Origin: a virus
Taxonomy: Duplodnaviria; Caudoviricetes
DNA length: 59,765 nucleotides
Virus record (IMG/VR): IMGVR_UViG_3300037311_000053
Span: 1-59,765 of that record
Strand: one strand, 5' to 3'
Shown here: positions 2,807 to 50,103 of the stretch, one piece after another
How the letters are laid out: the number at the start of each line of letters is the position of its first letter
How positions within the stretch are numbered: the stretch's first letter is position 1
The notes under the pieces: model-generated
What the model was told of the DNA's origin: nothing
Databases searched by the model: none
What the model saw: only the letters and a program-made list of their open reading frames with translations
Program-made: the position numbers and the translations under genes

Positions 2807-3117
2807 TGAAATGGAACCCGCCAAGTGAACGAGTGATGTTGGTGTTACTGTCACCGCTCATAGTGCCAGCCACCGCATTTCTTTTTATTGGGTTGCTACC
2901 GATACTGGCGGTATCTTGGCTGCAAGACCGCTTTGATCATAATCGCGGCCAGTGGCGGCAATGGTTTGCGTGGCGTCCAGTCTATTGCGACGGATTTTGG
3001 TATGACCAAAGGAGCAAATGGGTCTGGCTCGAAACGATAGAGCGCAGGGGTTTTTGGCTCGATAACTCAGAATATCGGCTAAAAGGATGGTCCTCAATCT
3101 ACCAAGGGAAAGCGTGA
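2803..3117 (+). CDS. Hypothetical membrane protein
   Basis: N-terminal TM segment plus WFAWRPV...WVWLETIERR phage motif. Confidence 0.7.
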   Translation: MMKWNPPSERVMLVLLSPLIVPATAFLFIGLLPILAVSWLQDRFDHNRGQWRQWFAWRPVYCDGFWYDQRSKWVWLETIERRGFWLDNSEYRLKGWSSIYQGKA

Positions 3118-3368
3118 TGGATATTATTGAACGGGCAGCGAGGCAGGCTTGTAAAGAAGGTGGCTTTGACCCTGACGAAATGATGCCGAATGATGGGCCG
3201 CGATGGAAATACTACGTGCCGAATGTCCGCGCCGTCTTATCCGCCATTCGTGTGCCTGATGAGGGGATGATTGAGGCAGGTAGCGCAGCAATACAGTCAA
3301 GCGGCTTTGTAGATGATGCCACAAAGCTAGGCTGGCAAGCAATGATAGACGCAGCGTTGAAAGGGTGA
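3117..3368 (+). CDS. Hypothetical phage protein
   Basis: TGATG coupling; PDEGMIEAG...WQAMIDAAL motif typical of phage early genes. Confidence 0.75.
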   Translation: MDIIERAARQACKEGGFDPDEMMPNDGPRWKYYVPNVRAVLSAIRVPDEGMIEAGSAAIQSSGFVDDATKLGWQAMIDAALKG

Positions 3369-3372
3369 TGTG

Positions 3373-3558
3373 ATGGATATTGAGCAGATTCAGAAAGCCG
3401 GTGCAAATGCTCGTGCGCTTGGGCGTGATAGATACTCTAACCCATATTACAAGGTCGAGCATATGCCAGTTAACACGGGCCAGACCTACGAAAAATGGCA
3501 GGCTGATATTGATGCTTGGGATTTGGGCTGGCAGATGGAAGATGCCTTGAAGGGGTGA
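3373..3558 (+). CDS. CrpP-related / ribosome-modulation-factor-like small protein
   Basis: GANARALG...NPYYK...AWDLGW pattern. Confidence 0.65.
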   Translation: MDIEQIQKAGANARALGRDRYSNPYYKVEHMPVNTGQTYEKWQADIDAWDLGWQMEDALKG

Positions 3559-3562
3559 TGGG

Positions 3563-3748
3563 GTGAAGCCGCCAATTCCTCCTGCATTTTGCAGCCATCT
3601 GCAAAAGATTGTATACGACACAGGAAGCACTACAACAGGCCGTTGCCCTCTTTGCGGAACGCGCATTACAGTCGTGGCTATCCGCAAGGAAGTGAAATAT
3701 GGCGAAACTTGGTCGCCAAAGATGCCGCCTGTCGAAGTTGGTGGTTGA
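3563..3748 (+). CDS. Small putative Zn-ribbon protein
   Basis: CSH...CPLC; last gene of the left operon. Confidence 0.4.
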   Translation: MKPPIPPAFCSHLQKIVYDTGSTTTGRCPLCGTRITVVAIRKEVKYGETWSPKMPPVEVGG

Positions 3749-4009
3749 CCGTCTTTCCAGTCTGTCAGCCGCATAGCGAGTGGCGCGATTGCTCCGCCTA
3801 ATCGAGCATCATCTAAACCGATCTCACCAAATCCACAACATCTCGTCGACGCATGAAATCGGTGCGCCGGCAAATCGTGCGCCTCAATCGAGAACCGCGC
3901 CAAATCCACGTACCGAGCCTAGGCAGAGTGCAACTTCAAACTATGCCAATGCTCAAAAAATGGGGCAGATGCTAAAAAAGTGGTTCTCCACCGCTTATCA
4001 TTGACATCA

Positions 4010-4345
4010 TCAATGGGTAGGAACCGTGTTTTTCTTGCGCCTCTTTGGCTTTTCTTTGGGCACTTCGATTGCATCGCTTTCAGGATCGACGGCGATGACG
4101 TGCACAAGCTGGCCATCGAGTAAGGGCAGGGCCGCAAGGTTAAACCCCATTGCTTTATAAACTGCAGTCAATGCGTTCCAGGTTGAGGCGCTACACTTTC
4201 CGCTTTCAGCGCTCACTAATGTCCTAAGGCTTAGGCCAGCTTTCGCGGCCGCTTCCCTTTGATCGATGCCAGCAAGGGCGCGCATTGCTCTCATAATAGC
4301 GCTTTTATCTGCCATTTTGCGCTCTATGTGTAGCGTTTGTGTCAT
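4010..4345 (-). CDS. XRE-family HTH transcriptional regulator
   Basis: RAMRALAGIDQREAAAKAGLSLRTLVSAESG helix-turn-helix; GGAG RBS before ATG at 4345; divergent from the accessory operon. Confidence 0.85.
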   Translation of the reverse strand: MTQTLHIERKMADKSAIMRAMRALAGIDQREAAAKAGLSLRTLVSAESGKCSASTWNALTAVYKAMGFNLAALPLLDGQLVHVIAVDPESDAIEVPKEKPKRRKKNTVPTH

Positions 4346-4596
4346 TTGCTTGTCTCCATACGGTGGATAGGTAGCATTTATTTGCATTTTATGTGCAATT
4401 AATGCTTGCAATCGCCGTAAATATATTTCAGTAAGGCGTCAACGGCAAAGAAAGCTCGCCTTTGCATATACACAATAGGGCAGATCAGTGGATAAGGCGG
4501 GGCCTTGGCAACAATGCGCCCCGCCACTTATTCCCCAAAGCCTTCGCAGCTTGTCCGATTGCGAAGCGTTCACTTGGGACAAAAGGAATTGAGCAA

Positions 4597-4821
4597 ATGT
4601 CACATTATGCACGTAAATTCGACAATCGTTTAGGCTTTGGGCGCGAACGCCTCACTATTAAAGCCTTTCCTACTAACGACGCATTGCATCGCTTTCTCAA
4701 TACACAAGGCAATGAATGGGGCGTTAGTGGCTACGGGCTAAAGGCTGGCACTTATGCCATGGCAGGCGGCAAATGGCACAATGTCCGCAAGTTGGATGCC
4801 ATGACGTTGGCGCATGTATGA
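4597..4821 (+). CDS. Hypothetical protein
   Basis: AAGGA RBS before ATG at 4597 (MSHYARKF). Confidence 0.7.
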   Translation: MSHYARKFDNRLGFGRERLTIKAFPTNDALHRFLNTQGNEWGVSGYGLKAGTYAMAGGKWHNVRKLDAMTLAHV

Positions 4822-4928
4822 TGCCCCGTCTATCCCGCGAAACATTGGAACAATTCGCAATCTGTCTTTTGATTGTGATTGTGTCCGCTTCCCTAACCTT
4901 TGGTGCAATTGGAGTAAGCCAGCCATGA
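4818..4928 (+). CDS. 36-aa single-TM peptide (not in ORF track)
   Basis: MMPRLSRETLEQFAICLLIVIVSASLTFGAIGVSQP; ATGA overlaps on both sides. Confidence 0.55.
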   Translation: MMPRLSRETLEQFAICLLIVIVSASLTFGAIGVSQP

Positions 4929-5212
4929 ATGACCTATCCACCTATGCGGCCGCCCTATCGACTAAAGCCGATATTGAGGCAATTTACACTAGGGCAAGCG
5001 ACGAATTGCGCGCCCTAGCAGGGGGCGGCCCTATGGGATTGACGCCCGATAGCGTTAAACAATCGCCAGAATTTAAAGCTGCTCAATCCGTTTTTAATTA
5101 TTGGCACGCCCGATTGAGGCAATTCAATGCGGCATTTATTCGCCAATACGGCAAGCAATATCATGCTGAATTGAGGGCGCAACGTGCCAGCTTATCGAAA
5201 GGGGGAAACTAA
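4925..5212 (+). CDS. Hypothetical phage protein
   Basis: GGAG RBS; GPMGLTPDSVKQSPEF motif. Confidence 0.75.
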   Translation: MNDLSTYAAALSTKADIEAIYTRASDELRALAGGGPMGLTPDSVKQSPEFKAAQSVFNYWHARLRQFNAAFIRQYGKQYHAELRAQRASLSKGGN

Positions 5213-5217
5213 CCAAA

Positions 5218-5288
5218 GCCGAAACGCGCGGCCATAGCGTCGCGCGTCTGGACGGATTGCCTAACCGTTCACTGATGAGGCAAGGCAA
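5218..5288 (+). ncRNA. Hammerhead ribozyme, type II, with loop I pseudoknot
   Basis: Stem II GCC 5218-5220 / GGC 5279-5281; GAAA 5221-5224; stem III CGCGCG 5225-5230 / 5241-5246; GUC cleavage after 5248; stem I UGGACGG 5249-5255 / CCGUUCA 5265-5271; CUGAUGA 5272-5278; loop UUGCCU 5257-5262 pairs with AGGCAA 5283-5288. Confidence 0.93.
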
Positions 5289-5302
5289 AAGGATTTTTAT
5301 TT

Positions 5303-5872
5303 ATGACGATTTTAACAGAACAAGAAACATTGCAGCGCGCGGCCGCGCGTCTCAATTTGACGGTTAAGGCTCAATTTGTCCCCTTTAGCGTTTCACGTTC
5401 AAAGGATCAAAAGGACAAGAATCTAAACTGGAAAGTGACGCTGCAGCGCGACGGCCGCGACATTATCGAAACGGATTATAGCGCCGGTCAAGGGCATTGC
5501 CCTAGCTATAAATCCCCGCCTAAATTTTCATCCGGCGCCGTTGATAAATGGAAGCATCGCAAGCAAATAGACATGGAATGCGAGACGGGGAAGCGCTGCA
5601 AATTTCAATATGAAAGCGCGCAATCCCTTAGCCCTATTTCCAGCCAGCCAATTGTGCCCGATGAATGCAGCGTTATCTATGCCCTAGTCATGGATTCCGA
5701 TGTTCTCAATTATTCCAGTTTTGAGCAATGGGCGGGCGATTTTGGTTATGATACGGACTCGCGCCAAGCCGAAAAGATTTACCAGGATTGCTTGGCGATT
5801 GCCCTAAAATTGCGCGCCGGATTAGGTGAGCAAGCCCTAAGCGAATTGGCGGCCGCTTGCCAAGATTATTGA
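5303..5872 (+). CDS. Hypothetical phage protein
   Basis: AAGGA RBS; FEQWAGDFGYDTDSRQAEKIY motif seen in phage early regions. Confidence 0.85.
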   Translation: MTILTEQETLQRAAARLNLTVKAQFVPFSVSRSKDQKDKNLNWKVTLQRDGRDIIETDYSAGQGHCPSYKSPPKFSSGAVDKWKHRKQIDMECETGKRCKFQYESAQSLSPISSQPIVPDECSVIYALVMDSDVLNYSSFEQWAGDFGYDTDSRQAEKIYQDCLAIALKLRAGLGEQALSELAAACQDY

Positions 5873-5941
5873 TCGAAACAATCGGCGCGCCTTGCCCTAT
5901 CGGCGGAATATGTGGCGCGCCCTATCATGGGAATTGAGACA

Positions 5942-6166
5942 ATGGATATTGCAACACAAATGGAGCTTTGCAACCAATTTGGAATTGTATTAGGCCGCGA
6001 TTTTCACGCGCTTAATTCGGATCAAGTTGAGCGCATTATAGCGGCTGCGGATTCGGTTAAATATCGCAAACCCAAAAGCGCTAACGGATCGCGGGCGCGA
6101 TATTTTTATCAGGCATTGCAAAGGGCGCACAATCGCCGTTGTCGCGCGCTCGGAATGAAAATCTAA
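5942..6166 (+). CDS. Hypothetical protein
   Basis: ATG at 5942 (MDIATQMELC); KYRKPKSANGSRARYF motif. Confidence 0.7.
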   Translation: MDIATQMELCNQFGIVLGRDFHALNSDQVERIIAAADSVKYRKPKSANGSRARYFYQALQRAHNRRCRALGMKI

Positions 6167-6216
6167 ACCCTATCGTGAAAATTCGGGCCAATGGGGCCCT
6201 ATCAGGAGAATTTGAT

Positions 6217-6582
6217 ATGTCGAAGTTTTATGAAGTCCGTTGCACCGCAAGCGCGGAAATAACAGAATTGTGGCGCGTTCAAGCCGATAGTGAGGATCAA
6301 GCGATTGAATTAATCGGGGAAGGGCAAGGCGATTTTATCCGTCAATGCGATGACGATGAAGAGCGCGATAGGCGCGACTGGCAAGCCGATGAAATTTTGC
6401 CGTATGAATATGAAACGCTTGGCCAATGGGATCAGATGCAAGCGGCCGCGCCCGATATGCTGGCGGCGCTGGAAGATGCCTATTCGGAATTGCTGGCAGA
6501 TAGCCATAGAGACGGGCCGCGGTGCCTTTTGCTTACTCAAATGGAGCGCGCCATAGCCAAGGCAAAGGGGCAAGGGGCATGA
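6217..6582 (+). CDS. Hypothetical phage protein
   Basis: AGGAG RBS lies inside a motif copy; AAAPDMLAALE...AIAKAKG phage motif. Confidence 0.8.
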   Translation: MSKFYEVRCTASAEITELWRVQADSEDQAIELIGEGQGDFIRQCDDDEERDRRDWQADEILPYEYETLGQWDQMQAAAPDMLAALEDAYSELLADSHRDGPRCLLLTQMERAIAKAKGQGA

Positions 6583-6770
6583 ACGCGCGTTACAAAAGCC
6601 GAATTGCGGCGAGCAAAGGGCGGCAAGAATTAGAATTGCTGGCCGCGGCTAAGCGCTTTGGTGACAGAGGAGCGGCCGCGTTTGTGGAAATAGCAAGGGC
6701 GCGACATAATGCGCCGATAACTTTGGAATATGCCGCGGATCTGATTAGCCGCGCAAAGTCTGCACCCTAG
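6579..6770 (+). CDS. Hypothetical protein
   Basis: ATGA coupling to the upstream gene. Confidence 0.6.
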   Translation: MNARYKSRIAASKGRQELELLAAAKRFGDRGAAAFVEIARARHNAPITLEYAADLISRAKSAP

Positions 6771-6784
6771 CGGCGCAATAGAAA

Positions 6785-6861
6785 AGCGAAACGCCCGCCC
6801 CCTTTCGTGGGAATATCGGGCGTCACTGGAGCAAGGCCGATTCCAGTCTGATGAGCTGGCC
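6785..6861 (+). ncRNA. Hammerhead ribozyme, type II (second copy, different stem sequences)
   Basis: Stem II AGC 6785-6787 / GCU 6855-6857; GAAA 6788-6791; stem III CGCCCG 6792-6797 / CGGGCG 6817-6822; GUC cleavage after 6824; stem I ACUGGA 6825-6830 / UCCAGU 6842-6847; CUGAUGA 6848-6854; loop GGCC 6835-6838 can pair with GGCC 6858-6861. Confidence 0.92.
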
Positions 6862-6879
6862 AAAATGGAGACTAAGACA

Positions 6880-8376
6880 ATGGAAATCACGAAAATTGAA
6901 GCCGCGAGCGAATTTAACCTATTTGACCTATTCGCTAAATGCCAAGTGGTAGGCGACAAGCGCGTCGCTAATGATGATGAATGCCGCGCCTATGCGCGCT
7001 GGCTGGCCATGAAAGCGGGCGTTGTGGAAGCGGTAACGAATAGCCCCGTTCTCGAATGGAAATACAGCGGCCGCAAGCATAGCGATAAAATTTGCATCGG
7101 CGCATATTTTGGGAATGCCTTTGTCACGTTTCCCGGTGCGGATCAGAACGGCGCCGTAACTTTCGAGTTATTGGACGAAAGCGGCAATGTCGAAACAAGC
7201 GGCACCATATACGCCAAGCCGAACGGGGCGCTTAATGTGAGCCCGTCCGATGCTGCAGCGATTAAGGAAAGCGGCAAGGCATGGGCCAAGGCGAACAAGG
7301 GCAAGGCAAAGGCCGTTCCGGTTGCCGTTGCTGCCCCTATCGATGAACCGGCACCCGTTGCCGCCCTACCGGATGAATTGGACGCGCCCGAATGCGCCCC
7401 AGAGACGCCACAGGACGACGCGCCCGCTACTACCCTAGCCGAAACGCCTGAAATAGCGCCACAGGACGAAAAAAACGGCGTTGCCGATGATATTGAAGCG
7501 CAACCCGATCCCATTGCGGCATTGATTGCGCGAATTGAGGCGCTGGAAGCGGCCATAAATGGAGCAAAGGCAGGCAGCGCAACCAAAAGCGAAAATCAGG
7601 ACGATTTGTCAACCGGCACCCCTTCCGTGGGAATATCGGAACCTGCACCCCTTTCGGGGGAATTGAAGCCCAAGCGCTCCCCCGCTCATATTCGGGCGAT
7701 TATCGCCTATCTGGCTATGCGGAAAGAGCGCAATTCGGAACGCAAGCATAACGCCATAGGAATGGCGCAACTGGATGAGATGCGTAAAGAATGCGGCCAA
7801 TGGCGGGGATTGGCAGAGAGCAGCGCAGCCGAATGCCTGAAATTGCGTAAAGAGCGCGATGATTATGAGGGATTGCAGCAACGGACATGGGAGCAGGCGA
7901 TGGGCTATAAGATGCAGCGCCGCCGCGCTATCCTGAAAGCGCTGGCCCTTCGTGGGAATTTGAAACGCTCGCGCGATATTGCCACCGATAGGCTCAAGCA
8001 GATCGTTGACATGTCCGACCGCCTTATTTCCGAGAGCAGCAAAGCCACGACCGCCGAAACATGCGCCCGTTCGGCCGAAAGCAGGGAAGCCAAGGCTAAT
8101 GCCGAATTGGCGGACATCAAACGCAAGCTCGCAGATCCGGCTAACCCCTTCCGCCTGTCCGATATGGTGGCGATAAATGACAAGGCGGGGGAATATCAGG
8201 CACGCGCCGAAAGGGCAGAAGCGGAAAGCGAACGCTTGCGCCGCTTGGCCATCCAGAACGCGGGGCATATCGAGACGCTTGCCAGCCGGATAGCAAAGGC
8301 CGAAACCATGCTGCGAGATAGCGGGTTGATGCCGGCGCTTTCAATCGTCCCCCCTTCCGTAGAAATTGCGGCATAG
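6880..8376 (+). CDS. Large hypothetical protein: globular N-terminus, Pro/Ala/acidic linker, long coiled coil
   Basis: GGAG RBS before ATG at 6880; ~498 aa; heptad-rich C-terminal half. Confidence 0.85.
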   Translation: MEITKIEAASEFNLFDLFAKCQVVGDKRVANDDECRAYARWLAMKAGVVEAVTNSPVLEWKYSGRKHSDKICIGAYFGNAFVTFPGADQNGAVTFELLDESGNVETSGTIYAKPNGALNVSPSDAAAIKESGKAWAKANKGKAKAVPVAVAAPIDEPAPVAALPDELDAPECAPETPQDDAPATTLAETPEIAPQDEKNGVADDIEAQPDPIAALIARIEALEAAINGAKAGSATKSENQDDLSTGTPSVGISEPAPLSGELKPKRSPAHIRAIIAYLAMRKERNSERKHNAIGMAQLDEMRKECGQWRGLAESSAAECLKLRKERDDYEGLQQRTWEQAMGYKMQRRRAILKALALRGNLKRSRDIATDRLKQIVDMSDRLISESSKATTAETCARSAESREAKANAELADIKRKLADPANPFRLSDMVAINDKAGEYQARAERAEAESERLRRLAIQNAGHIETLASRIAKAETMLRDSGLMPALSIVPPSVEIAA

Positions 8377-8488
8377 GGTATTCGTGGGAATTATGGTGAC
8401 TTCTCTGCCCTATCATGGCATAGAAATCGGGCCGGTTAAGCTGCGTCAACAGCCACCGGCCCTGACCACTACGAAAGGATACTTCGCT

Positions 8489-9073
8489 ATGGCTAGTCGC
8501 CAATTGCCCGATATTGATGTGCTACACAAGTTAATGGAATACGATTCCTTAACCGGATTATTCACATGGAAGCGTCGCGCGCCTGAATTATTTGATAATT
8601 CCAAGGGGCAGGCGTTGTGGAGATCGAGAGTATGGAACTCGAAAAATGCTGGGAAACCGGCTTTAAATAGACCCCATGGCGTTGGGAGGACACACCTATC
8701 TGGCGGGATATTAGGCGAACTTTGGTTGGCTCATAGAATCGCGTGGGGGATGCACTACAATGTGCGTGATTTTGATGTGATCGACCATATCGACGGTGAT
8801 GGCACCAACAACAGAATCTCTAATCTGCGCACCGCAAACATGGCCATTAATGCTCGCAATGCGGCGATGCGTAGAGATTCTACAAGTGGTGTATCAGGGG
8901 TTCATTGGCATGTAGGAAGATATGGGAGGCCGGTTTGGGTCGCTAGAGTGCAAGTAAACGGAAAGCGCCACTTCCTTGGCTCTTTTGATGACATTGAGCA
9001 GGCAAAATCCGCTCGCCTTTCAGCGCTATCTAAATACGGATTTGGCCCATCCCACGGAAAGTTGAGAAAATGA
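8489..9073 (+). CDS. HNH homing endonuclease with AP2-like C-terminus
   Basis: AHRIAW...IDHIDGDGTNNRISNLR...SGVSGVHW...FLGSF. Confidence 0.9.
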   Translation: MASRQLPDIDVLHKLMEYDSLTGLFTWKRRAPELFDNSKGQALWRSRVWNSKNAGKPALNRPHGVGRTHLSGGILGELWLAHRIAWGMHYNVRDFDVIDHIDGDGTNNRISNLRTANMAINARNAAMRRDSTSGVSGVHWHVGRYGRPVWVARVQVNGKRHFLGSFDDIEQAKSARLSALSKYGFGPSHGKLRK

Positions 9074-9750
9074 GTGTAGATTATACCTACACAAAATCAC
9101 GGCCTAAGGAATTATGCCAATTAGCTGGCCGTTGGAATGGGCACATTCCTGCTTGTGGCATAATTAGCGAAGTCAAATATGATGGTTTCCGATGCTTGTA
9201 TTTTCGCGGATTGGAGGGCCGGCCAGCCCTGTGGACGCGCAATGGCTTTCGCATAGAGGGGACAGGCCATATTCTGCATAGGCTATCACTTATGGAACGC
9301 GCAGCCGGTTACCCCCTATTCATCGACGGCGAATTTCAGGTTGACGGAACACTGGCCGCAACAAAGGCGTGGTTTGAATCCGGTTGGAAGTCAGGCGATG
9401 AGGCTGGTCAGCTATTCGCTTTTGATTGTATGCCACTTTCCGATTGGGAAGCAGGGCGCAGCGATGTGCCTTGGTATGAGAGAAAGAAACTCTTGGCCGA
9501 TCTACTAGCCGCTTCCTATGTCCTACCGGACGATTGGGAATGGCGCGAGGGGCGTCGTGGGGATGAGCCGGCCACCCCTATCAGCGTGATACCAGATCAA
9601 TGGCTGGAAACGGCTACGGATGTGCGCGATGAAGCGGAAAGAGTGTGGGCGCGGAATGGAGAGGGTCTTATGCTAAAAAACCCAATGGCACCCTATGTCC
9701 GTGCTCGGTCGAACGAATGGCTAAAGGTGAAGCGCAATGGCGTCCGATAA
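9070..9750 (+). CDS. ATP-dependent ligase, adenylation domain only
   Basis: Motifs I EVKYDGFR, III IDGEF, IIIa FAFD, IV EGLMLK, V WLKVK; stop five residues after motif V, so no OB-fold. Confidence 0.85.
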   Translation: MSVDYTYTKSRPKELCQLAGRWNGHIPACGIISEVKYDGFRCLYFRGLEGRPALWTRNGFRIEGTGHILHRLSLMERAAGYPLFIDGEFQVDGTLAATKAWFESGWKSGDEAGQLFAFDCMPLSDWEAGRSDVPWYERKKLLADLLAASYVLPDDWEWREGRRGDEPATPISVIPDQWLETATDVRDEAERVWARNGEGLMLKNPMAPYVRARSNEWLKVKRNGVR

Positions 9751-9862
9751 GAAATGTCCGCGCTGCACCCCCGCCGATGAAGTTACATGGTCCGACCTGC
9801 AATCAGATCGGGTCGAGTTATGCAAAGAATGTCAGGAGAAAATAAGTGACACCGAAAGTTGA
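9737..9862 (+). CDS. 41-aa putative zinc-finger peptide (not in ORF track)
   Basis: MASDKKCPRC...LCKECQEKISDTES; two CxxC motifs. Confidence 0.4.
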   Translation: MASDKKCPRCTPADEVTWSDLQSDRVELCKECQEKISDTES

Positions 9863-10280
9863 AAAGAACGTCGAGAGGCTGATCGAGAAACTGCGCGATG
9901 CCTATGCGGTAAATCCCGCTGGTGTTGGCGCCATCGTGAACGATGCGACCGTACTTGCAAATAGGCTCATCAACCGAGCCCCTACCGAGGGGATGGAGCG
10001 GATCGAGTACGCGCCGTCAAAGGGTCCGGTCTATGAGTTTACCGGCCTTGTGCTGCACGAGGGCTCGTACAACGATACATCGATCGAGATCGCTCAATCC
10101 CTATCAGGGAAATTGGTGGTCTTTCAGGAATGGCGTGGTTCTCAGGGCGACATGCTCAGTCGTGTCGACGTTCTCGAAGCCGGTGATTACATCGGCGTCA
10201 TGGATGCTCTCAACTGGTCCGGTCTTGCTCGTAATGCAGCCAAGGCGCTCAAGTGGCGGTTGCGCGTGGAAGTCGATTGA
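9846..10280 (+). CDS. Hypothetical protein
   Basis: AGGAG RBS before GTG. Confidence 0.7.
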   Translation: MTPKVEKNVERLIEKLRDAYAVNPAGVGAIVNDATVLANRLINRAPTEGMERIEYAPSKGPVYEFTGLVLHEGSYNDTSIEIAQSLSGKLVVFQEWRGSQGDMLSRVDVLEAGDYIGVMDALNWSGLARNAAKALKWRLRVEVD

Positions 10281-10301
10281 CCCCCTATCAGGAGAATTGC
10301 G

Positions 10302-10547
10302 ATGAACAAATTTGACGAACAGGCTGAAGTCATGAAGACGAAGTTGAGGCACAGTTTCAGCAAAGTATCCTCTGATATATCTCGAAGTCTGGAAAGCGCA
10401 TTTAACAGCCCAGAGGCTAAACGTGCATTGAAAGAGTTGTCCGATGCCGTTGGTCAAATCCAGATCGATAACAAGGCATGGCAGGATTATCGCGCGGCCT
10501 TGAAGCGAGCAAGACTGCAAGCGACTGAAAGCAAAAAAGCGGGCTGA
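10302..10547 (+). CDS. Hypothetical helical protein
   Basis: AGGAG RBS inside the motif copy at 10283. Confidence 0.65.
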   Translation: MNKFDEQAEVMKTKLRHSFSKVSSDISRSLESAFNSPEAKRALKELSDAVGQIQIDNKAWQDYRAALKRARLQATESKKAG

Positions 10548-10572
10548 AGGTTTGACCCTCCAACCCGCTTTT
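10535..10572. terminator. Probable bidirectional intrinsic terminator
   Basis: AAAAGCGGG...CCCGCTTTT between the convergent accessory and lysis operons. Confidence 0.6.
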
Positions 10573-10670
10573 CGAGGTTCCCCCTCATTTCCCCACACCC
10601 TATCAGGGCAATTATGGGCCGGTCACGTTCCCCCGAACCATTGACCGGCCCTCCCGCGTGGACGGGAACC

Positions 10671-29977: not shown

Positions 29978-30912
29978 GGCCGCAGTCTCCTTTCTCTTTT
30001 GATGCGGTCGGTTTCTTCTTCGAGACGGGACCATGCCTCGCGCTCGGAGATCACAGCGTCCATCAGGCCAAGGCTGACAGCCTCCTTGCCCTCGAACCAA
30101 TCGGCTTCGGTTTCCAGAACAGCATCAACCGGCATGTTGCGGCCGATACTGACAAGGTTGGCGAAGCGTTTGCGGACATCATCGACACTGGCCTGCAATT
30201 TGGCCGCTGTCGTTTCGTCCAAACCTTCGTATGGGTTGCCGCGCATCTTGCGCTCGCCGGAGCGGATTACGGTCACATCAATACCGTCTTCTTCCAGCGC
30301 ACGATTGATGCTGGTGTGAACCACGACGCAGCCAATTGAGCCGACCATCGCGTCCTCTGGCCCGTAAATCTTATCGCAAACCGAGGCGATCGCATAAGCC
30401 GCGCTGCAAGCCTGCTCATTGACCCAAGCATAGATGGGCTTGCCGCCCTCTCCTTGGGTCATCTGGGCAAGTTCTTCCACAAATGAAAAGAGGCCCGAAA
30501 CGGCCCCTCCTGGACTATCGATGTCCAACCAGATGCCTAAGACATCTGGGTCGCGGTATGCGTCCGTCAATTGCCGCAAGAGCATGTTGTAGCCACAAAA
30601 TCCGCTCATTGCATCGAGATAACCTGCTTTATGTACGAGCGTGCCTTCAACGCGGATGACAGCGATGTCTCCATCCATCGAATAAGCCTTGCTGCTCTCG
30701 CGGTCATACTTTGCATCACGGGCCAGCGCAGACCGTTCCAGCATGGCATTGGCATCCAATGTCACAGCATCAATCGTCTTCATTGAAACGATGCCTAGTT
30801 TTGCCTGTAGCGCGCAAAGCAAGACTTCCATCTTGTGAGGATGGATTGCGACCGGCCTGTTTAAAAGTTGCTGGGCGATATTGGGAAAGCCTTGTGGGCG
30901 AAAATTGCTCAT
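29974..30912 (-). CDS. S49-family head maturation protease
   Basis: LDIDSPGG, ACSAAYAIAS, VGSIG. Confidence 0.93.
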   Translation of the reverse strand: MSNFRPQGFPNIAQQLLNRPVAIHPHKMEVLLCALQAKLGIVSMKTIDAVTLDANAMLERSALARDAKYDRESSKAYSMDGDIAVIRVEGTLVHKAGYLDAMSGFCGYNMLLRQLTDAYRDPDVLGIWLDIDSPGGAVSGLFSFVEELAQMTQGEGGKPIYAWVNEQACSAAYAIASVCDKIYGPEDAMVGSIGCVVVHTSINRALEEDGIDVTVIRSGERKMRGNPYEGLDETTAAKLQASVDDVRKRFANLVSIGRNMPVDAVLETEADWFEGKEAVSLGLMDAVISEREAWSRLEEETDRIKRERRLRP

Positions 30913-31484
30913 GCCGCTTTTCTTCCGTGATTAGGATGGAAGCCATATTGGCGCTCGGCTGCTTTTCTTGCCGAAATAGCTCCGTCTTTTGTAGGAAAGA
31001 GGCCCAAGTGCTTTTTGCGCCGATTAATTTTGATGAACGCACACCATTTTGAGCGCGATCCATGCCAGTAAACACCCATGTGTCCGCTAGTATTTTTTGC
31101 GTTCAACTTTTGATTTCGCATATTTTCGGTATCAGAGACTAGTCTAAGATTTCCGATGCGGTTGTTTTGCGGGTCGCCATCAATGTGATCGATGTCTTGG
31201 TTTGGCCATGCCCCATAATGGAGCGCCCATGCCACGCGGTGCGCTTTGTAGCGCAGACCAAGAATATCGCCGTGGCCATAACCGTTAGCTTCGACGCTCG
31301 CCAAAGCAGGGGTTCCCGCATATCGGGCATTCCACTTCCTGCTTGACCAAATCGCGCCCCGTCCATCGTCCGAAAAGTAATGTAATGGTCTTGCGCGCCA
31401 CGTTAGTTTCCCAGTTACAGCATCGTAGCTAATAAGGTCGCGCAGTTGATCAACGGTGATCAAAGGATCACGTATCTTCGCCAT
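30909..31484 (-). CDS. HNH homing endonuclease with AP2-like C-terminus
   Basis: AHRVAW...IDHIDGDPQNNRIGNLR...SGHMGVYW...HLGLF; similar to 8489-9073. Confidence 0.9.
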   Translation of the reverse strand: MAKIRDPLITVDQLRDLISYDAVTGKLTWRARPLHYFSDDGRGAIWSSRKWNARYAGTPALASVEANGYGHGDILGLRYKAHRVAWALHYGAWPNQDIDHIDGDPQNNRIGNLRLVSDTENMRNQKLNAKNTSGHMGVYWHGSRSKWCAFIKINRRKKHLGLFPTKDGAISARKAAERQYGFHPNHGRKAA

Positions 31485-33138
31485 CGCTTGGGCCCCTTTT
31501 CGCTTTACCCTCATTAATTTTCCCGTCGCCGTCACGGTCAGCCTCAGTGCCGCTCCCCTCAGAACCATCTGCTCCGCCTTCTTGGTCTGGCTTGACGTTC
31601 AGATTGGCAGGAGGGAGGCCCTTATCTTGACGAGCACTAATCCAATACATTTCTTCCTGCATCACATCGTCGGGGTCTCGGCCTCTTTCATTAATCAACT
31701 CGACTGTGGAAACACGCCCCGCAGCCGTATCAAGATTGTTGGCATCCGCTTCCTTTTTGGGATCTACAGAACCGCGCGATGGCCCGCACCATTCGCAATT
31801 TGTGATTTCTGTCTTGCGGCGATAGAAATTTGAAGCACCACCTGGCATTTTAATTTCGCCAAGGGCAATCGCTTCCTCAAGCCAAGATGCGTAAACCGGA
31901 CGGCAAAACGCCTGCGTGAACCACTCACGGTCCTGAAGGAACGACCGCCACATTTCGTTAAGCAGCGCACGGGCCGATGAGTAGTTAATGTCAGCCCAAT
32001 TCTGGGAAAGCTGGGGATAGCTAACGCCAATTACACCGGCAATTTTACGGAGAAAGGTTGCCTGAAATACATCGTAGTTCGATCTGGCGCGCGATGCGTT
32101 GCTCGGGACAACTTTCTCACCTGGGAATAGATGGCCTACATCAGAGTTATTCCAGCGAAGCGGGTTTTTGTTACGGTAGTCGACAAGCTCATCATAATAT
32201 CCGTCTGAGATTGCGCTTGCCGAATTTGGTGCGACAGCATCTTGTACTTCTGATGTTGGGGCTGGGCTCTCAATAAAAATTGAAAGCATGGCGTCCTTTA
32301 CCTGAGCCTTGATTTCCTCACGATCTGAGCGATCCAGCATCTTTGCTGGAACCATTGCTTCCACAAGGCGGCTGATACCGCGGCCTTGCTCAATCCGACG
32401 AGGATTGAATACATGAACCACCTTGCTTTTTCCGGTTTTTGTCTGAGCAGAGATGTATTCAAATTCTTCCGCGTCAAAAGAGCGGTGCATGTCGCCGCTG
32501 TGCCGCTTTCGGAAATAATATCCGACCGGAGCATTGTTGCTGTCATATCGGATGCCGTTGCGGACCTGCTTGTCCATTTTGAGCAATGGGGGAGTTTCGA
32601 GGCGTTCGCAGTCGATCAAAAGAAGATTGGTTTGGAAACGGGCTCCACGTTCCGACATGCGGATTTCAGCAGCAACCTCGCCATCACGCACGTAATGCAG
32701 ATAGGCGAGATTGACCAACTTCCCAAAATTCATGCGCTTACGGGCATCGCAGCGGAAGTGAATATCGTTCGCCCAAACCTTAAAGAGAGACTGGGTGGTT
32801 CCCGCCCATCCCATGCGCCACTTATAGTCCTTGCCCAAAAGCGAATACATTGGCTGGGCGCTAAGACGGATGTTATTGCCGATTACAGCTTCGACGCGGC
32901 GATCTAGGCCACCATTTACCCAGCCATTGTTGGCATCCATGTCTTGAGCGCGGGCAGTTATCTTTCTGCCATAACTCTCAATTTCAGTATCGGTATGAGT
33001 GGCACGCGGGTTCCATCCGCGCATCTCAGAGGATTCGTTGCGTCCGCCTTCATATCCCGATTGGCCATAGGCAAAATATGCTTGGTTCCGAGGTATGCTG
33101 CCATCCGTGCGGACGCGAATACGCGGCTTTGTAATCAT
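31468..33138 (-). CDS. Portal protein, lambda family
   Basis: ARAQDMDANNG...RDGE...QGRGIS...NYSSARA...VDPKKE. Confidence 0.93.
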   Translation of the reverse strand: MITKPRIRVRTDGSIPRNQAYFAYGQSGYEGGRNESSEMRGWNPRATHTDTEIESYGRKITARAQDMDANNGWVNGGLDRRVEAVIGNNIRLSAQPMYSLLGKDYKWRMGWAGTTQSLFKVWANDIHFRCDARKRMNFGKLVNLAYLHYVRDGEVAAEIRMSERGARFQTNLLLIDCERLETPPLLKMDKQVRNGIRYDSNNAPVGYYFRKRHSGDMHRSFDAEEFEYISAQTKTGKSKVVHVFNPRRIEQGRGISRLVEAMVPAKMLDRSDREEIKAQVKDAMLSIFIESPAPTSEVQDAVAPNSASAISDGYYDELVDYRNKNPLRWNNSDVGHLFPGEKVVPSNASRARSNYDVFQATFLRKIAGVIGVSYPQLSQNWADINYSSARALLNEMWRSFLQDREWFTQAFCRPVYASWLEEAIALGEIKMPGGASNFYRRKTEITNCEWCGPSRGSVDPKKEADANNLDTAAGRVSTVELINERGRDPDDVMQEEMYWISARQDKGLPPANLNVKPDQEGGADGSEGSGTEADRDGDGKINEGKAKRGPSDGEDT

Positions 33139-38582: not shown

Positions 38583-40643
38583 CTATCGGTTCAAGTTGTC
38601 GAACCGCTGAAAAATGGTTTGCTTTTCCGCTTCTGGTTTGGCCTCAGCCGCAACCGCAGGATCACCCCCTTCCTCTGGTTCGGTGAGCGATACTGGCTGA
38701 GCCCAAACAGGTTCATGGCCTTTGCGCCAATCCCTGCCTTTGCGATCGGGTTCCAGCATTTGCCGCCCAGCTTCGGTGTAAGCCAAAAGGTCGAGGGTTT
38801 CGTTCGGGCCATTGCGGACCCATTTTCCCTCGACCTTAACCTCGTTGAATATTTCCTCGAACGCCGTGACCGGCATATCGCTTGGGAAATACACTTGCCC
38901 CGCGCTGCCATCCTCGACAGCGAGAGCATCAATCTGATCATCCTTGAGCGCGTCGACGCCCAGAGTGTGCATTGTCACCTTGGGCTCGACCTTCTGGCCC
39001 TCGCTATCCTTGCTGATAAAAGCAGGGGTAGGACTGAGGGACGGCCTGTTTCCGCCAACGCCCTTGATGCACCGTACCTTGCGCCACGTTGCCCAGCGCT
39101 TGACATCCATACGTCGCGCAAATTCATAAGCGCGCCACATCGTATTGCCGTCTCCGGTGTCGATCACCGTGACCGCAACCGGCAATGCCTTCTCTGGGTC
39201 GGACGCCAAAGGAATAAGCCGGTCGATCACCTGCTTTTCCAATACCATCCAGTCGTCTTGGACCGACTTCGCGCTAATATCGCGCATGATGCCGTCCTTG
39301 TGCTTGCGCTGCCGGATGGTGAAGCGGTCGATCACGCATGACCGGCTCTGCAAATCCCAGCCACGTAGCATGACGTCAAACTTGCTATGGCCAACGTCGA
39401 CCGCGGCAAGTTCTTTAGTCCGGCGCCGGAGTGAAGCCGCGTCCAGACCACTTGCATCGCCAGCACCTTCGTATGCCTCGCCAAAGGTGCGGACCAAGAC
39501 CTGTTTGAGCTTTTCGGTTTTACCCGTCCGCTCGTGATGCTCGACCGCCGCTTCCATTTCCTTGGCCAGTGAGGGCAAGGTGACTTGCGGAACCATCAGG
39601 ACATGGACCCAAAAGCCCATTGTTTCTCCGGTATCGGCATCTCCGATCACGCCCGATTTTACATCTAGGCTTTGACCCTCGTGCATAAAGCACCCCTTGC
39701 CGATCATTGCGACCCGCTGGGCATCATCAATCACGCACCCGTTATTCGGGCATAACATGACCGCTGTTTGCTCGGCGCGTTTCAGGCGTTCGCCAATTGG
39801 CGTGCGCTCTGGCGATTTTTCATAATTCAGCCGGAAGCGGGGGACATCCTGCCAATGCTTTGTCGGATATGGGCTGGCCCATTCCTCACAGTGCGGGCAG
39901 GGCATCACATAGATACCGCGGCTCGATTGCAACCATGCCTGCGCTATGCCACCGGACCATCCGATGTCAGCGTGCGCGCAAGCGTAAATCTTTCTCTGGT
40001 TGCCCACCATGCGTTGACGCTGGCGGCCCTGCTCCAAGAAGTTGGAGGCGAATTTCTTATTGTAACTGTCCGGCTCGTCAAAGACGATCAGTTTCGCTTG
40101 CCGGTTGGTCGTGGTCTTTGCCGACATGGCCATCAGCTCGATACTGTGACCACCAATCCGTTTCAGCGTCAGTTTGTTGTCGCTGGGTCCGCTGCCTACC
40201 TTCTCGGCAACTCCAGCGTGGTCCTCAAAGATGTACCGAAATTCGCGGTCAGCGTAACTCGACACTTCGCCTGGACCAGCGAGATACCACATGACATCGC
40301 CTGCAGGTCCAAACTCAAACATCTTGAGCGCGTAATTTTCAGCAATGACCGTTCCACCGCATCGCGCTGGCTTCGGAACAATAACCTCTCGGACATTGTT
40401 ATCGTCCATAGCTGCCATGACAGCCGGAGCCCAAGGAGCCTTTTCAATGGACCATTTGACCTTCGTTCCATCATCCTTGCGGAATTTCCGAAACTCGATC
40501 GAATATTGGAGCGTTGATATTTCGCGCGGCGGGAGAAGGCGAACCAACTCACCGCGAGCAATCTCAGTCAGGCTTGCACAATATGCGTCAGATGCCAGTA
40601 ACCGCGCCGTCTCCGCGATTTCCGCTCTCGACAAGACGCGCAT
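38583..40643 (-). CDS. Terminase large subunit, lambda GpA family
   Basis: Deviant Walker A KPARCGGT, Walker B IVFDEPD, CPHC...CPNNGC, AAVDVG and IDTGDG nuclease motifs. Confidence 0.93.
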   Translation of the reverse strand: MRVLSRAEIAETARLLASDAYCASLTEIARGELVRLLPPREISTLQYSIEFRKFRKDDGTKVKWSIEKAPWAPAVMAAMDDNNVREVIVPKPARCGGTVIAENYALKMFEFGPAGDVMWYLAGPGEVSSYADREFRYIFEDHAGVAEKVGSGPSDNKLTLKRIGGHSIELMAMSAKTTTNRQAKLIVFDEPDSYNKKFASNFLEQGRQRQRMVGNQRKIYACAHADIGWSGGIAQAWLQSSRGIYVMPCPHCEEWASPYPTKHWQDVPRFRLNYEKSPERTPIGERLKRAEQTAVMLCPNNGCVIDDAQRVAMIGKGCFMHEGQSLDVKSGVIGDADTGETMGFWVHVLMVPQVTLPSLAKEMEAAVEHHERTGKTEKLKQVLVRTFGEAYEGAGDASGLDAASLRRRTKELAAVDVGHSKFDVMLRGWDLQSRSCVIDRFTIRQRKHKDGIMRDISAKSVQDDWMVLEKQVIDRLIPLASDPEKALPVAVTVIDTGDGNTMWRAYEFARRMDVKRWATWRKVRCIKGVGGNRPSLSPTPAFISKDSEGQKVEPKVTMHTLGVDALKDDQIDALAVEDGSAGQVYFPSDMPVTAFEEIFNEVKVEGKWVRNGPNETLDLLAYTEAGRQMLEPDRKGRDWRKGHEPVWAQPVSLTEPEEGGDPAVAAEAKPEAEKQTIFQRFDNLNR

Positions 40644-50016: not shown

Positions 50017-50069
50017 CTGTTACGGTTATCGTAAGGTAAAAGTCAAATGCAAAATTACGAAATCCGTTA
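50017..50069. promoter_or_regulatory. OR-like operators and cro promoter
   Basis: TTACGGTTATCGTAA 50020-50034 and TTACGAAATCCGTTA 50055-50069; minus-strand TTGACT-N18-TAACAG. Confidence 0.75.
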
Positions 50070-50103
50070 CAGACCCCAGCCGCCGCGCGGTTTACGCTGG
50101 GAT

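What the first reader, a model, noticed from the sequence alone, without database searches (positions are those of the whole stretch)
3900..10651. Self-contained accessory block combining ribozymes, an oriented repeat array, a dedicated regulator, a nuclease and a minimal ligase
Seen: a ~6.7 kb segment transcribed opposite to the late genes. It has a divergent XRE regulator at the left end, a terminator at the right, two hammerhead ribozymes, at least 13 co-oriented 16-bp motifs, shifted codon usage, about ten unknown ORFs, an HNH gene and an OB-less ligase. I saw none of these nucleic-acid signals in the other 52 kb. Inference: they work as one unit, for example a first-injected, pre-early anti-defence region whose mRNA is self-processed and whose DNA is marked by a polar binding motif. 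I do not recognise this combination as a described system, but I could not search the literature.
Basis: partly seen in the sequence, partly recalled or inferred. Interest (0 to 1): 0.85.

Follow-up and report, generated by a model that had tools for sequence, protein, structure and literature searches.

The report
Ribozyme- and motif-punctuated phage accessory operon
One operon of a temperate phage of sphingomonad-type bacteria carries two genuine self-cutting hammerhead RNAs (a known phage habit) and a strand-locked 16-letter repeat of unknown role that its relatives share, but the parts do not form one dedicated machine.

Summary
Window 4349-10651 is one rightward transcription unit, convergent with the lysis and tail genes.

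- **Ribozymes:** two type II hammerheads at 5217-5289 and 6784-6864. They score 33.5 and 33.9 bits, under Rfam's cut-off of 37. Cores, three stems and a covarying pseudoknot are intact, and syntenic copies in relatives score 39.6-40.9.
- **Motif:** CCCTWTC-RK-GGGAATW matches 11 times on the + strand, all within 5895-10613. It matches twice on the - strand elsewhere; the reversed-pattern control gives 0.
- **Other parts:** a weak HTH gene, an HNH gene, an OB-less ligase, a codon shift and two terminal hairpins.

Ligase, motif and usually hammerheads recur together in a clade of (pro)phages linked to Sphingomonadales. Other parts assort freely. The HTH gene was found only here. The HNH gene moves and has a paralogue at 30909-31568. 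Two relatives keep the motif without a hammerhead hit, and one locus has the ligase alone. I found no support for a first-injected or anti-defence role.

Hammerhead arrays in prophage operons have been in print since 2011, and this scan has found them on other DNA before. The motif is the new element. It marks gene and module junctions and resembles mycobacteriophage start-associated sequences, but fewer than a quarter of copies precede a start codon. Its mechanism remains inferred.

The parts
4010..4348 (-). Small HTH (XRE-like) gene, 112 aa, divergent from the operon
   Evidence: HTH_3 scores 21.1 bits (cut-off 23) and HTH_31 scores 20.7. Weak PHROG regulator hits. No homologue in G001, G003, G004 or G005.
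4349..4596 (.). Divergent intergenic region, the presumed promoter and operator zone
   Evidence: Read: AT-rich, with TTGCA/TGCAA inverted repeats. No motif copy lies here. The promoter scan was uninformative.
4597..5212 (+). Two small genes (4597-4821, 74 aa; 4925-5212, 95 aa)
   Evidence: ORFs. phrog_7560 (unknown function) for the second. No Pfam family.
5217..5289 (+). Type II hammerhead ribozyme 1; predicted cut after C5248
   Evidence: RF02276 at 33.5 bits. Intact core, 3 stems and a 5-bp pseudoknot UGCCU/AGGCA. The syntenic copy at L021 3075-3142 scores 39.6 bits.
5303..5872 (+). Conserved phage gene of unknown function (phrog_4273)
   Evidence: phrog_4273 with E 7.6e-25. 226 phage records match by tblastn. 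Homologues in L021 and L022.
5895..5935 (+). Tandem motif pair (5895-5910, 5920-5935) between the stop at 5872 and the ATG at 5942
5942..6166 (+). Small gene, 74 aa
   Evidence: The window's 5938-6219 is 88.7% identical in DNA to L022 2769-3048. The ORF 5912-6166, which includes this gene, is 85% identical in protein to L022 over 82 residues.
6168..6212 (+). Tandem motif pair (6168-6183 one base after the stop; 6197-6212 holds the AGGAG in front of ATG 6217)
   Evidence: The same layout occurs in L022 at 2999-3041.
6217..6770 (+). Two small genes (6217-6582, acidic, 121 aa; 6579-6770, 63 aa)
   Evidence: ORFs. phrog_1273 is a weak hit. No Pfam family over its cut-off.
6784..6864 (+). Type II hammerhead ribozyme 2; predicted cut after C6824; motif copy 6800-6815 fills the stem III loop
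   Evidence: RF02276 at 33.9 bits. Core, stems and GGCC/GGCC pseudoknot. Syntenic copies: L021 3912-3981 at 40.0 bits and L022 3541-3618 at 25.1 bits.
6880..8376 (+). 498-aa protein: N-terminal domain, disordered linker, long C-terminal helices. Motif copies at 7620-7635, 7649-7664 and 7945-7960, and a weaker one at about 8352.
   Evidence: Homologues at 61-68% identity. AF2 model with mean pLDDT 58.9, helices 268-417 and 427-480. Relatives fuse the C-terminal part to DnaN domains. Motif copies.
8489..9073 (+). HNH homing-type endonuclease (frame open from 8366)
   Evidence: HNH_3 at 35.1 bits. phrog_99 with E 8.7e-51. Position varies among relatives. Paralogue at 30909-31568, 42% identical.
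9070..9750 (+). ATP-dependent ligase made of the nucleotidyltransferase domain only
   Evidence: PF01068 with E 1.4e-12. Aligns to residues 161-338 of the 432-aa chain 6rar and then ends. The L021 orthologue ends at the same point. 204 clusters of related proteins, of which the 120 listed are 152-279 aa and all carry PF01068.
9737..9862 (+). 41-codon ORF with two CxxC pairs, overlapping the ligase stop (uncertain gene)
   Evidence: ORF, translation read. No family hit.
9846..10547 (+). Two genes (9846-10280, 144 aa, holds motif 10099-10114; 10302-10547, 81 aa), with motif 10283-10298 between the stop and the start
   Evidence: Homologues lie next to the ligase in L021 and L033; in L032 the homologue follows the HNH gene downstream of the ligase. 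AF2 model pLDDT 78.3. No PDB fold match at E<=1e-3.
10535..10651 (+). End of the unit: hairpin 10535-10572 with flanking A- and U-tracts, motif 10598-10613, hairpin 10616-10651
   Evidence: -18.1 kcal/mol (z -2.1) and -28.8 kcal/mol (z -4.25). Motif copy.

Best explanation
Window 4349-10651 is the accessory operon of a temperate tailed phage whose relatives lie in Sphingomonadales genomes. It runs rightward from a divergent control region and ends in two hairpins facing the lysis and tail genes. By position it resembles the b region of phage lambda. That analogy is recalled and inferred from gene order.

Its long transcript carries two active-looking type II hammerheads. They should cut it after C5248 and C6824 into three pieces. 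Each piece would begin just ahead of a conserved gene: the phrog_4273 gene and the 498-aa coiled-coil protein. This is the known prophage hammerhead arrangement.

A 16-nt asymmetric motif, CCC(T/C)(A/T)TC-NN-G(G/A)(G/A)AAT(T/A), is locked to the coding strand and confined to this operon, here and in relatives. It sits mostly where sequence is free to vary: right after stop codons, right before start codons (where its purine run serves as the Shine-Dalgarno), in a hammerhead stem III loop and in linker-coding DNA.

My preferred reading, which is inferred, is a linear sequence signal read on the transcript by a phage-specific factor, akin to mycobacteriophage start-associated sequences. As a side effect it would give related phages short identical joints for swapping gene cassettes. 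The HNH gene is a mobile homing endonuclease. The OB-less ligase belongs to a large family of such proteins. The HTH gene is a local regulator found only in this phage. The parts share an operon, not a mechanism.
For: **Layout.** Integrase, CI-like repressor, replication, head, tail and lysis genes lie on the other strand or arm.

**Hammerheads.** In 8 of 8 the cores and stems are intact, and 7 of 8 have a pseudoknot. The pseudoknot pairs covary: UGCCU/AGGCA, GGCC/GGCC, UGCC/GGCA, UGGC/GCCA, UAGC/GCUA and UCGCC/GGCGA. Perreault 2011 (PMC3088659, passages read) describes hammerheads flanking genes or short gene blocks in prophages, including Agrobacterium and Azorhizobium.

**Motif strand and place.**
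- Window: 11 forward, 2 reverse.
- G003, a complete 61-kb relative: 0 forward, 9 reverse, all within 58110-60045.
- G004: 3 forward, 0 reverse.
- G005: 0 forward, 2 reverse.
- Controls are 0 throughout.

In four 3-3.6 Mb genomes the counts sit near control, apart from the phage contigs.

**Motif at junctions.** Of 60 copies in 8 loci, 20 lie from 8 nt before to 30 nt after the stop of a long ORF, against a background of 11% (p 4.8e-6). 13 of 60 lie 0-12 nt before a start.

**Sequence signal, not a fold.** Motif regions fold no better than shuffles, with z of +1.2, -0.4, +0.9 and +0.5. Only 5 of 60 copies have an enclosing stem of 5 bp or more, which matches the control. The C-run stays even where the G-run is lost.

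**Cassette joint.** An 88.7%-identical patch between the window (5938-6219) and L022 starts just after one motif copy and ends just after another.

**Closest analogue.** Start-associated sequences (PMC3203893, passages read).

**HNH and ligase.**
Against: - No RNA data exist, so transcription, cutting and any reading of the motif on RNA are untested.
- With a looser regex set, only 10 of 36 copies precede a start, against 18% background (p 0.11). The motif is therefore not chiefly a ribosome-binding site.
- 32 of 60 copies are at neither kind of junction; reading the coordinates, most of these lie inside ORFs, many as 29-nt-spaced pairs in the coiled-coil gene. That suits a DNA-level site at least as well.
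- Strand polarity alone cannot separate RNA from polar DNA signals.
- The window's two hammerheads fall below Rfam's cut-off.
- I could not confirm the prophage ends: the longest repeat shared by the two ends is 11 bp, which is chance level. The lambda b-region analogy therefore rests on gene order only.
- The stop-proximity background includes spurious overlapping ORFs.
Confidence: 0.58

Rival explanations
1. The motif is a DNA-level site: a polar array bound by a protein of the same module. The binder could be the coiled-coil protein, which in relatives carries beta-clamp domains. It would act with the ligase in replication, nick repair or silencing, in the manner of iterons inside an initiator gene or of mycobacteriophage stoperators.
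For: - 32 of 60 copies are at neither a stop nor a start junction.
- 29-nt-spaced pairs recur at the linker of the coiled-coil gene in the window (7620/7649), L033 and L022.
- L022's 950-aa homologue and P0010 carry the DnaN N-terminal and central domains.
- The ligase is the neighbour in 6 loci.
- The motif regions show no significant RNA fold.
- Stoperators are asymmetric, oriented sites bound by a monomeric repressor (PMC9283540, abstract seen in the listing).
Against: - No copy lies in the divergent control region 4349-4596 or near the repressor gene at about 50 kb, unlike stoperators, which share their sequence with the promoter operator (recalled).
- The local HTH gene is not conserved.
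- Copies are spread over 4.7 kb rather than clustered like an origin.
- A DnaD-like replication gene lies on the other arm.
- Three hammerhead stem III loops hold a copy, which this reading treats as chance.
- The coiled-coil model shows no DNA-binding fold, but its confidence is low.
Confidence: 0.2
2. One reading: the block is one integrated, first-injected, pre-early anti-defence unit. Its mRNA would be self-processed and its DNA marked by a polar binding motif.
For: - One co-oriented unit with its own control region.
- Hammerheads flank the anti-restriction gene ardA in an Agrobacterium prophage (PMC3088659).
- One block protein (6217-6582) is strongly acidic.
- The codon usage is shifted.
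Against: - The components assort independently.
- There is no ArdA or other anti-restriction Pfam hit and no PADLOC hit.
- The block lies about 28 kb from the terminase gene.
- The phage has an integrase and a CI-like repressor, so it is temperate, not like T5 or N4.
- No giant virion RNA polymerase gene was seen among the ORFs of 150 aa or more.
Confidence: 0.07
3. The motif has no function of its own. It would be a short repeat spread and kept by recombination or gene conversion between related phages (boundary or linker sequence). Its purine run is used as a ribosome-binding site only where it happens to lie before a gene.
For: - A high-identity patch is bounded by motif copies.
- Copies lie at module boundaries, including the junction between the variable N-terminal and conserved C-terminal parts of the coiled-coil gene.
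- Copy number is highly variable, from 0 to 14 per locus.
Against: - Twelve core positions carry at least 0.9 bit each in phages whose proteins are only 30-45% identical.
- The strand bias is near-total in four full genome records (25 on the block strand, 2 on the other) and 6 to 0 on the L021 block.
- Restriction to one operon points to selection.
Confidence: 0.12

Closest known systems
Clustered hammerhead ribozymes in prophage operons (Perreault et al. 2011, PMC3088659; Rfam RF02276 type II)
   Same: Type II hammerheads with the loop I/3' tail pseudoknot lie between genes of one prophage operon and flank a short gene block. They occur in alphaproteobacterial prophages, and the genes they flank vary.
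   Different: The window has only two copies, both below the Rfam cut-off. One carries the operon's repeat motif in its stem III loop, as do hammerheads in L032 and L031. Activity was not tested here.
Start-associated sequences (SAS and ESAS) of Cluster K mycobacteriophages (Pope et al. 2011, PMC3203893; survey PMC12699233)
   Same: A short asymmetric repeat with 11-19 copies per genome, one orientation, confined to non-structural genes. It contains an AGGAG-type core, is absent from the host genome, and is conserved across diverged phages in front of unrelated genes. Its function is still unknown.
   Different: Nearly all SAS copies lie 3-7 bp before a start codon. Here 13 of 60 copies do, 20 of 60 follow stops, and many lie inside ORFs or in ribozyme loops. 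The sequence, the host phylum and the restriction to one operon all differ.
Stoperators of Cluster A mycobacteriophages (PMC9283540, abstract only; other details recalled)
   Same: Many copies of an asymmetric site, oriented with transcription, in short intergenic gaps of a temperate phage.
   Different: Stoperators occur genome-wide and match the repressor's promoter operator. Here no copy lies at either candidate control region, and the nearby HTH gene is not conserved.
Minimal ATP-dependent DNA ligases (PDB 6rar as the nearest solved relative)
   Same: Nucleotidyltransferase motifs I, III, IIIa, IV and V are aligned and conserved.
   Different: There is no OB domain or motif VI. The protein ends 5 residues after motif V, as does the L021 orthologue; the 120 related clusters listed are of similar length (152-279 aa).
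Solitary CRISPR-repeat units (RNA anti-CRISPRs; PMC10651486) and cyanobacterial DR5 repeats (PMC4916379)
   Same: The copy at 10099 shares 14 consecutive letters with the 3' hairpin part of DR5 repeats. Some copies continue with AATTGAAG, which resembles the repeat's ATTGAAAC end.
   Different: The motif is 16 nt, not a full 28-37 nt repeat. It is multi-copy and tandem, not solitary. The tail is not conserved (0.1-0.4 bit). No matching array was found in 4 related genomes. The resemblance came from a text search for that very string.

Membership tests
Hammerhead ribozyme, type II (RF02276) | Conserved catalytic core (CUGANGA, GAAA, cleavage triplet GUH) | tested here: met
   CGAAA, GUC and CUGAUGA (or CUGACGA) in 8 of 8, including both window copies.
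Hammerhead ribozyme, type II (RF02276) | Three stems around the core, stem II open; loop I/3' tail pseudoknot | tested here: met
   Stems of 3-4, 4-8 and 7-10 pairs in 8 of 8. Pseudoknot of 4-5 bp in 7 of 8, with covarying pairs.
Hammerhead ribozyme, type II (RF02276) | Score at or above Rfam's gathering cut-off (37 bits) | tested here: not met
   Window copies score 33.9 and 33.5. Syntenic copies score 40.0 and 39.6 in L021 and 40.9 in L032.
Hammerhead ribozyme, type II (RF02276) | Self-cleavage | not testable with these tools
   Needs in vitro transcription or 5'-end mapping. No RNA run is listed.
Start-associated sequences (SAS) | Short asymmetric repeat, one orientation, confined to the non-structural part, absent from the host | tested here: met
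Start-associated sequences (SAS) | Virtually every copy lies 3-7 bp upstream of a start codon | tested here: not met
   13 of 60 copies lie 0-12 nt before a start. With the regex set, 10 of 36 against 18% background, p 0.11.
Stoperator system | The same site serves as operator at the repressed early promoter, and sites are spread genome-wide | tested here: not met
   No copy in 4349-4596 or near 49.5-50.1 kb. All forward copies lie within 5895-10613.
Stoperator system | A conserved repressor binds the site | tested here: inconclusive
   The local HTH gene has no homologue in 4 related genomes or records. Binding cannot be tested here.
ATP-dependent DNA ligase | Nucleotidyltransferase domain with the motif I lysine (KxDG) and motifs III-V | tested here: met
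   PF01068 with E 1.4e-12. K36, D38 and G39, DGEF 86-89, EG 198-199, K203 and K219 are invariant between the window and L021.
ATP-dependent DNA ligase | C-terminal OB domain with motif VI | tested here: not met
   The query ends at residue 226, opposite residue 338 of the 432-aa chain 6rar. The neighbouring 144-aa protein has no OB or ligase fold match at E<=1e-3.
HNH homing endonuclease | HNH domain; free-standing gene whose position varies between related genomes | tested here: met
   HNH_3 at 35.1 bits. Absent, upstream or downstream of the ligase in relatives.
XRE-family regulator | HTH_3 domain over the Pfam cut-off | tested here: inconclusive
   21.1 bits against a cut-off of 23.
RNA anti-CRISPR (solitary repeat unit) | Near full-length match to a CRISPR repeat of the host's subtype; solitary | tested here: not met
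   No CRISPR-DR family appeared in the Rfam E-value scan of the block. Copies are tandem and numerous. There is no array of the motif in G001, G002, G148 or G312. The SRUFinder repeat library was not available.
T5/N4-type pre-early (first-injected) region | Lies at the virion DNA end that enters first and is expressed first | not testable with these tools
   No termini or RNA data. Gene order argues against it (inference).

The most novel reading that the evidence does not exclude
The 16-nt motif and the hammerheads form one RNA punctuation code specific to this phage clade. The ribozymes would cut the operon transcript into segments. The motif would sit after stops, before starts and inside a ribozyme loop, and be read by a dedicated phage factor that sets the translation or lifetime of each segment. 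That factor might also gate ribozyme folding. A bolder variant is that the copies are degenerate CRISPR-repeat-like decoys.
Probability: 0.12. Interest if true: 0.7.

Novelty: new variant of a known kind. Interest (0 to 1): 0.42.

Why it matters
Hammerhead arrays in phage operons are established, so the ribozymes add only a clean alphaproteobacterial example with good covariation.

The useful part is the motif. It is a strand-locked, operon-restricted 16-mer kept across phages whose proteins have drifted to 30-45% identity, and it lies outside the actinobacteriophages where such elements (SAS, stoperators) are known. If it is read on RNA, it offers a second, independent system in which to learn what SAS-like elements do. 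That question has been open since 2011.

The large family of OB-less ligases, often next to a coiled-coil or beta-clamp fusion protein, is also a testable biochemical puzzle.

Tried and rejected
- **Close DNA relatives.** Megablast of the block against 50,697 phage records found none. The exact 16-mer in IMG/VR gave 14 single-copy loci with no further copies, which I take as chance. The phrog_4273 protein alone found no viral relative.
- **Split OB domain in the 144-aa neighbour.** The AF2 model has pLDDT 78.3. Foldseek against the PDB gave no match at E<=1e-3. Not supported.
- **Fold of the 498-aa protein.** Mean pLDDT is 58.9 and pTM 0.21, too poor to search. It has no PDB sequence match.
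- **phrog_4273.** The Atlas returned only viral hypothetical clusters. The dsRBD rows have TM 0.28-0.29 and are not usable.
- **CsrA as reader of the GGA-rich motif.** There is no CsrA gene over the cut-off in the phage or in G001 and G002, which are incomplete genomes.
- **Motif as a hairpin or loop-displayed element.** Folds are no better than shuffles. Enclosing stems match the control, p 0.52.
- **Motif as a plain ribosome-binding site.** 10 of 36 copies against 18% background, p 0.11.
- **Motif as a host-wide signal or CRISPR repeat.** Counts are near control in four genomes.
- **Defence genes.** No PADLOC hit for 10 block proteins.
- **Promoter scan.** 4 sites against 8.2 expected, which is uninformative.
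- **RNA evidence.** No RNA holder is listed, and read laying was not used.
- **Other limits.** Supplements of PMC3088659 (Figures S1-S3) and of the SAS papers were not seen. My literature search for the motif used only the four strings. The only notable hits among the 10 of 151 papers listed were CRISPR DR5 repeats; the other 141 were not inspected.

Full report
**Setting.**

The window is a complete IMG/VR virus record of 59,765 bp. PHROG matches place the following genes:
- an integrase at 57677-58744 (+)
- a CI-like repressor at 50047-50775 (+)
- a DnaD-like replication gene and two methyltransferases at 43-49 kb (-)
- the large terminase at 38583-40646 (-)
- portal, protease, major head protein and tape measure further down the minus strand
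- small ORFs (95-158 aa) at about 10.7-11.9 kb (-) that I read as lysis genes by position; no family search was run on them

The finding covers plus-strand genes from about 4.6 to 10.5 kb, which run head-on into that late operon. The position recalls the b region of phage lambda. That analogy rests on gene order and on recall. I could not confirm the prophage ends, because the longest repeat shared by the two ends is 11 bp.

**Hammerheads.**

Nothing reaches Rfam's gathering score. The permissive scan gives two full-length type II hammerhead matches, at 5217-5289 (33.5 bits) and 6784-6864 (33.9 bits), against a cut-off of 37.

Relatives carry copies in the same places:
- L021 at 3075-3142 (39.6 bits) and 3912-3981 (40.0 bits), each directly in front of the homologue of the same gene as in the window
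- L022 at 3541-3618 (25.1 bits) in front of the large gene
- L032, two copies (40.9 and 29.6 bits), and L031, one copy (29.7 bits)

A script that parsed the 8 sequences found intact cores and three stems in 8 of 8. It found a loop I/3' tail pseudoknot in 7 of 8, and the paired letters change together between copies. The predicted cuts fall after C5248 and C6824 (read).

Perreault et al. 2011 (PMC3088659, passages read) already describe several hammerheads flanking genes or short gene blocks in prophages, including two alphaproteobacteria. They also describe this pseudoknot. Earlier reports of this scan list several such arrays on other DNA. The ribozymes are real but of a known kind.

**Motif.**

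The 16-mer is far beyond chance: 7 matches against 0.40 expected. With a degenerate pattern and up to 2 mismatches, the window has 11 forward matches, all within 5895-10613. It has 2 reverse matches elsewhere, and the reversed-pattern control gives none.

The same call shows the same pattern in relatives:
- 9 matches, all on the block's strand and all within 2 kb, in a complete 61-kb relative (G003)
- 3 of 3 on one strand in G004
- 2 of 2 on one strand in G005

In the 3.6-Mb genome that holds L021, 6 of the 7 matches with at most 1 mismatch lie on the phage contig. Four genomes as a whole sit near control.

A matrix built from 28 copies gives the consensus CCCC-T(A/T)TC-RG-GGGAAT-T, with little information outside 16 positions.

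**What the motif is not.**
- It is not chiefly a ribosome-binding site. 13 of 60 copies lie 0-12 nt before a start. With a regex set the count is 10 of 36 against 18% background, p 0.11.
- It is not a stable fold. Four motif regions fold no better than shuffles. Enclosing stems of 5 bp or more occur in 5 of 60, as in controls, and three of those five are hammerhead stem III.
- It is not a host signal or a CRISPR repeat of the genomes available.
- CsrA was not found.
- The nearby HTH gene is not its conserved partner.

**What the motif is associated with.**

The clearest association is with junctions. 20 of 60 copies lie from 8 nt before to 30 nt after the stop of a long ORF, against 11% background (p 4.8e-6). 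A typical junction reads stop, copy, short spacer, copy holding the Shine-Dalgarno, then ATG (window 6164-6219; L022 2995-3048).

Copies also fill the stem III loop of the window's second hammerhead and of hammerheads in L032 and L031. Others form 29-nt-spaced pairs in the part of the 498-aa gene that encodes a disordered linker.

In L019 a stand-alone gene for the C-terminal module starts just upstream of a motif-like stretch. That pair therefore marks a module boundary.

An 88.7%-identical patch between the window and L022 runs from just after one copy to just after another.

**Other parts.**
- **HTH gene.** The call is weak, at 21.1 bits against a cut-off of 23.
- **HNH gene.** The match is solid, but the gene is mobile. 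It is absent in L021, L020 and L033, upstream of the ligase in the window and L031, and downstream in L032. It has a 42%-identical paralogue at 30909-31568.
- **Ligase.** It has all nucleotidyltransferase motifs and stops where the OB domain of 6rar begins. It belongs to at least 204 clusters; the 120 listed are 152-279 aa and all carry PF01068, one with PF09414 as well. Named members come from Sphingopyxis, Novosphingobium, Caenibius and Altererythrobacter. It was found in 3 of 401 sampled genomes of the order.
- **Codon usage.** The shift is real.
- **Remaining proteins.** The rest have no informative family, structure or defence match.
- **Clamp fusions.** Relatives fuse the coiled-coil module to beta-clamp domains.

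**Co-occurrence.**

| Locus | Hammerheads | Motif copies | HNH | Ligase | Other |
|---|---|---|---|---|---|
| Window | 2 | 11-13 | yes | yes | HTH gene |
| L021 | 2 | 4-6 | no | yes | |
| L022 | 1, plus a decayed remnant read | 14 | not seen | contig ends before it | |
| L033 | none at E<=0.5 | 9-11 | no | yes | |
| L032 | 2 | 3 | yes | yes | |
| L031 | 1 | 2-3 | yes | yes | |
| L030 | only a 70%-identical stretch | 6 | no match | fragment | |
| L034 | none | 2 | no match | yes | |
| L035 | none | none | no match | yes | |

In addition, six phrog_4273 loci (L023, L025-L029) have no Rfam match at gathering score, and those six plus L024 show no motif cluster.

The block is thus a conserved module with cis-elements that come and go. 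It is not an indivisible system.

**Verdict.**

The best explanation is an accessory operon cut by known-type ribozymes and punctuated by a clade-specific linear motif. I put about 0.35 on that motif being read on RNA. The main rival is a polar DNA site for a module protein.

The closest published analogue is the start-associated sequence of Cluster K mycobacteriophages (PMC3203893). Its function was still untested in 2025 (PMC12699233). The motif fails the SAS rule that nearly every copy precedes a start, so I call it a new variant, not a member.

A 14-letter identity of one copy with cyanobacterial DR5 CRISPR repeats (PMC4916379) is noted as a low-odds lead only.

Noticed in passing
window 9737-9862 (+): A 41-codon ORF with two CxxC pairs (zinc-ribbon-like). 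Its ATG overlaps the ligase stop codon. It has no family hit, and L021 has no room for a counterpart.
   Followed up: partly
L022 3605-6457; protein P0010: Homologues of the 498-aa protein carry the N-terminal and central domains of the DNA polymerase III beta clamp, fused to the conserved C-terminal coiled-coil module. This hints at a DNA-metabolism role beside the OB-less ligase.
   Followed up: partly
L022 about 1365-1450; L021 about 7215-7270: Stretches that read like decayed hammerheads, with the GAAA or CUGAUGA cores mutated. One lies in front of the phrog_4273 homologue, the other in the 3' tail of the block. This suggests ribozyme loss in place.
   Followed up: no
window 30909-31568 (-): A second HNH endonuclease between the portal and protease genes, 42% identical to the block's HNH.
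   Followed up: partly
window 5880-5919 (+): Two copies of an 8-bp GC palindrome flank the motif copy at 5895-5910. They could enclose it in an 8-bp stem, much as hammerhead stem III encloses the copy at 6800.
   Followed up: partly
window 10099-10114 and 7649-7670: The copy at 10099 shares 14 consecutive letters with the hairpin part of cyanobacterial DR5 CRISPR repeats. The copy at 7649 continues with AATTGAAG, like a repeat's 3' handle. This is probably chance.
   Followed up: partly
L022 893-1303 (+): A weak match to ribosome modulation factor, 20.1 bits against a cut-off of 27.9, in a gene of the related operon.
   Followed up: no
window 3369-4009; L021 2007-2072: About 640 bp without a convincing gene lie left of the HTH gene. 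Window 3960-4026 is 78% identical to a stretch of L021, although L021 lacks the HTH gene.
   Followed up: no
L033 13940-14100 and 13690-13745 (- strand): Dense arrays of the heptamer CCCTATC alone, at least 7 in about 170 nt, lie upstream of the first genes of the related block. The 5' half of the motif may therefore be an element in its own right.
   Followed up: no
G001:C624:15865-15880: One motif copy with a single mismatch lies outside the block, among the late genes of the L021 phage contig.
   Followed up: no
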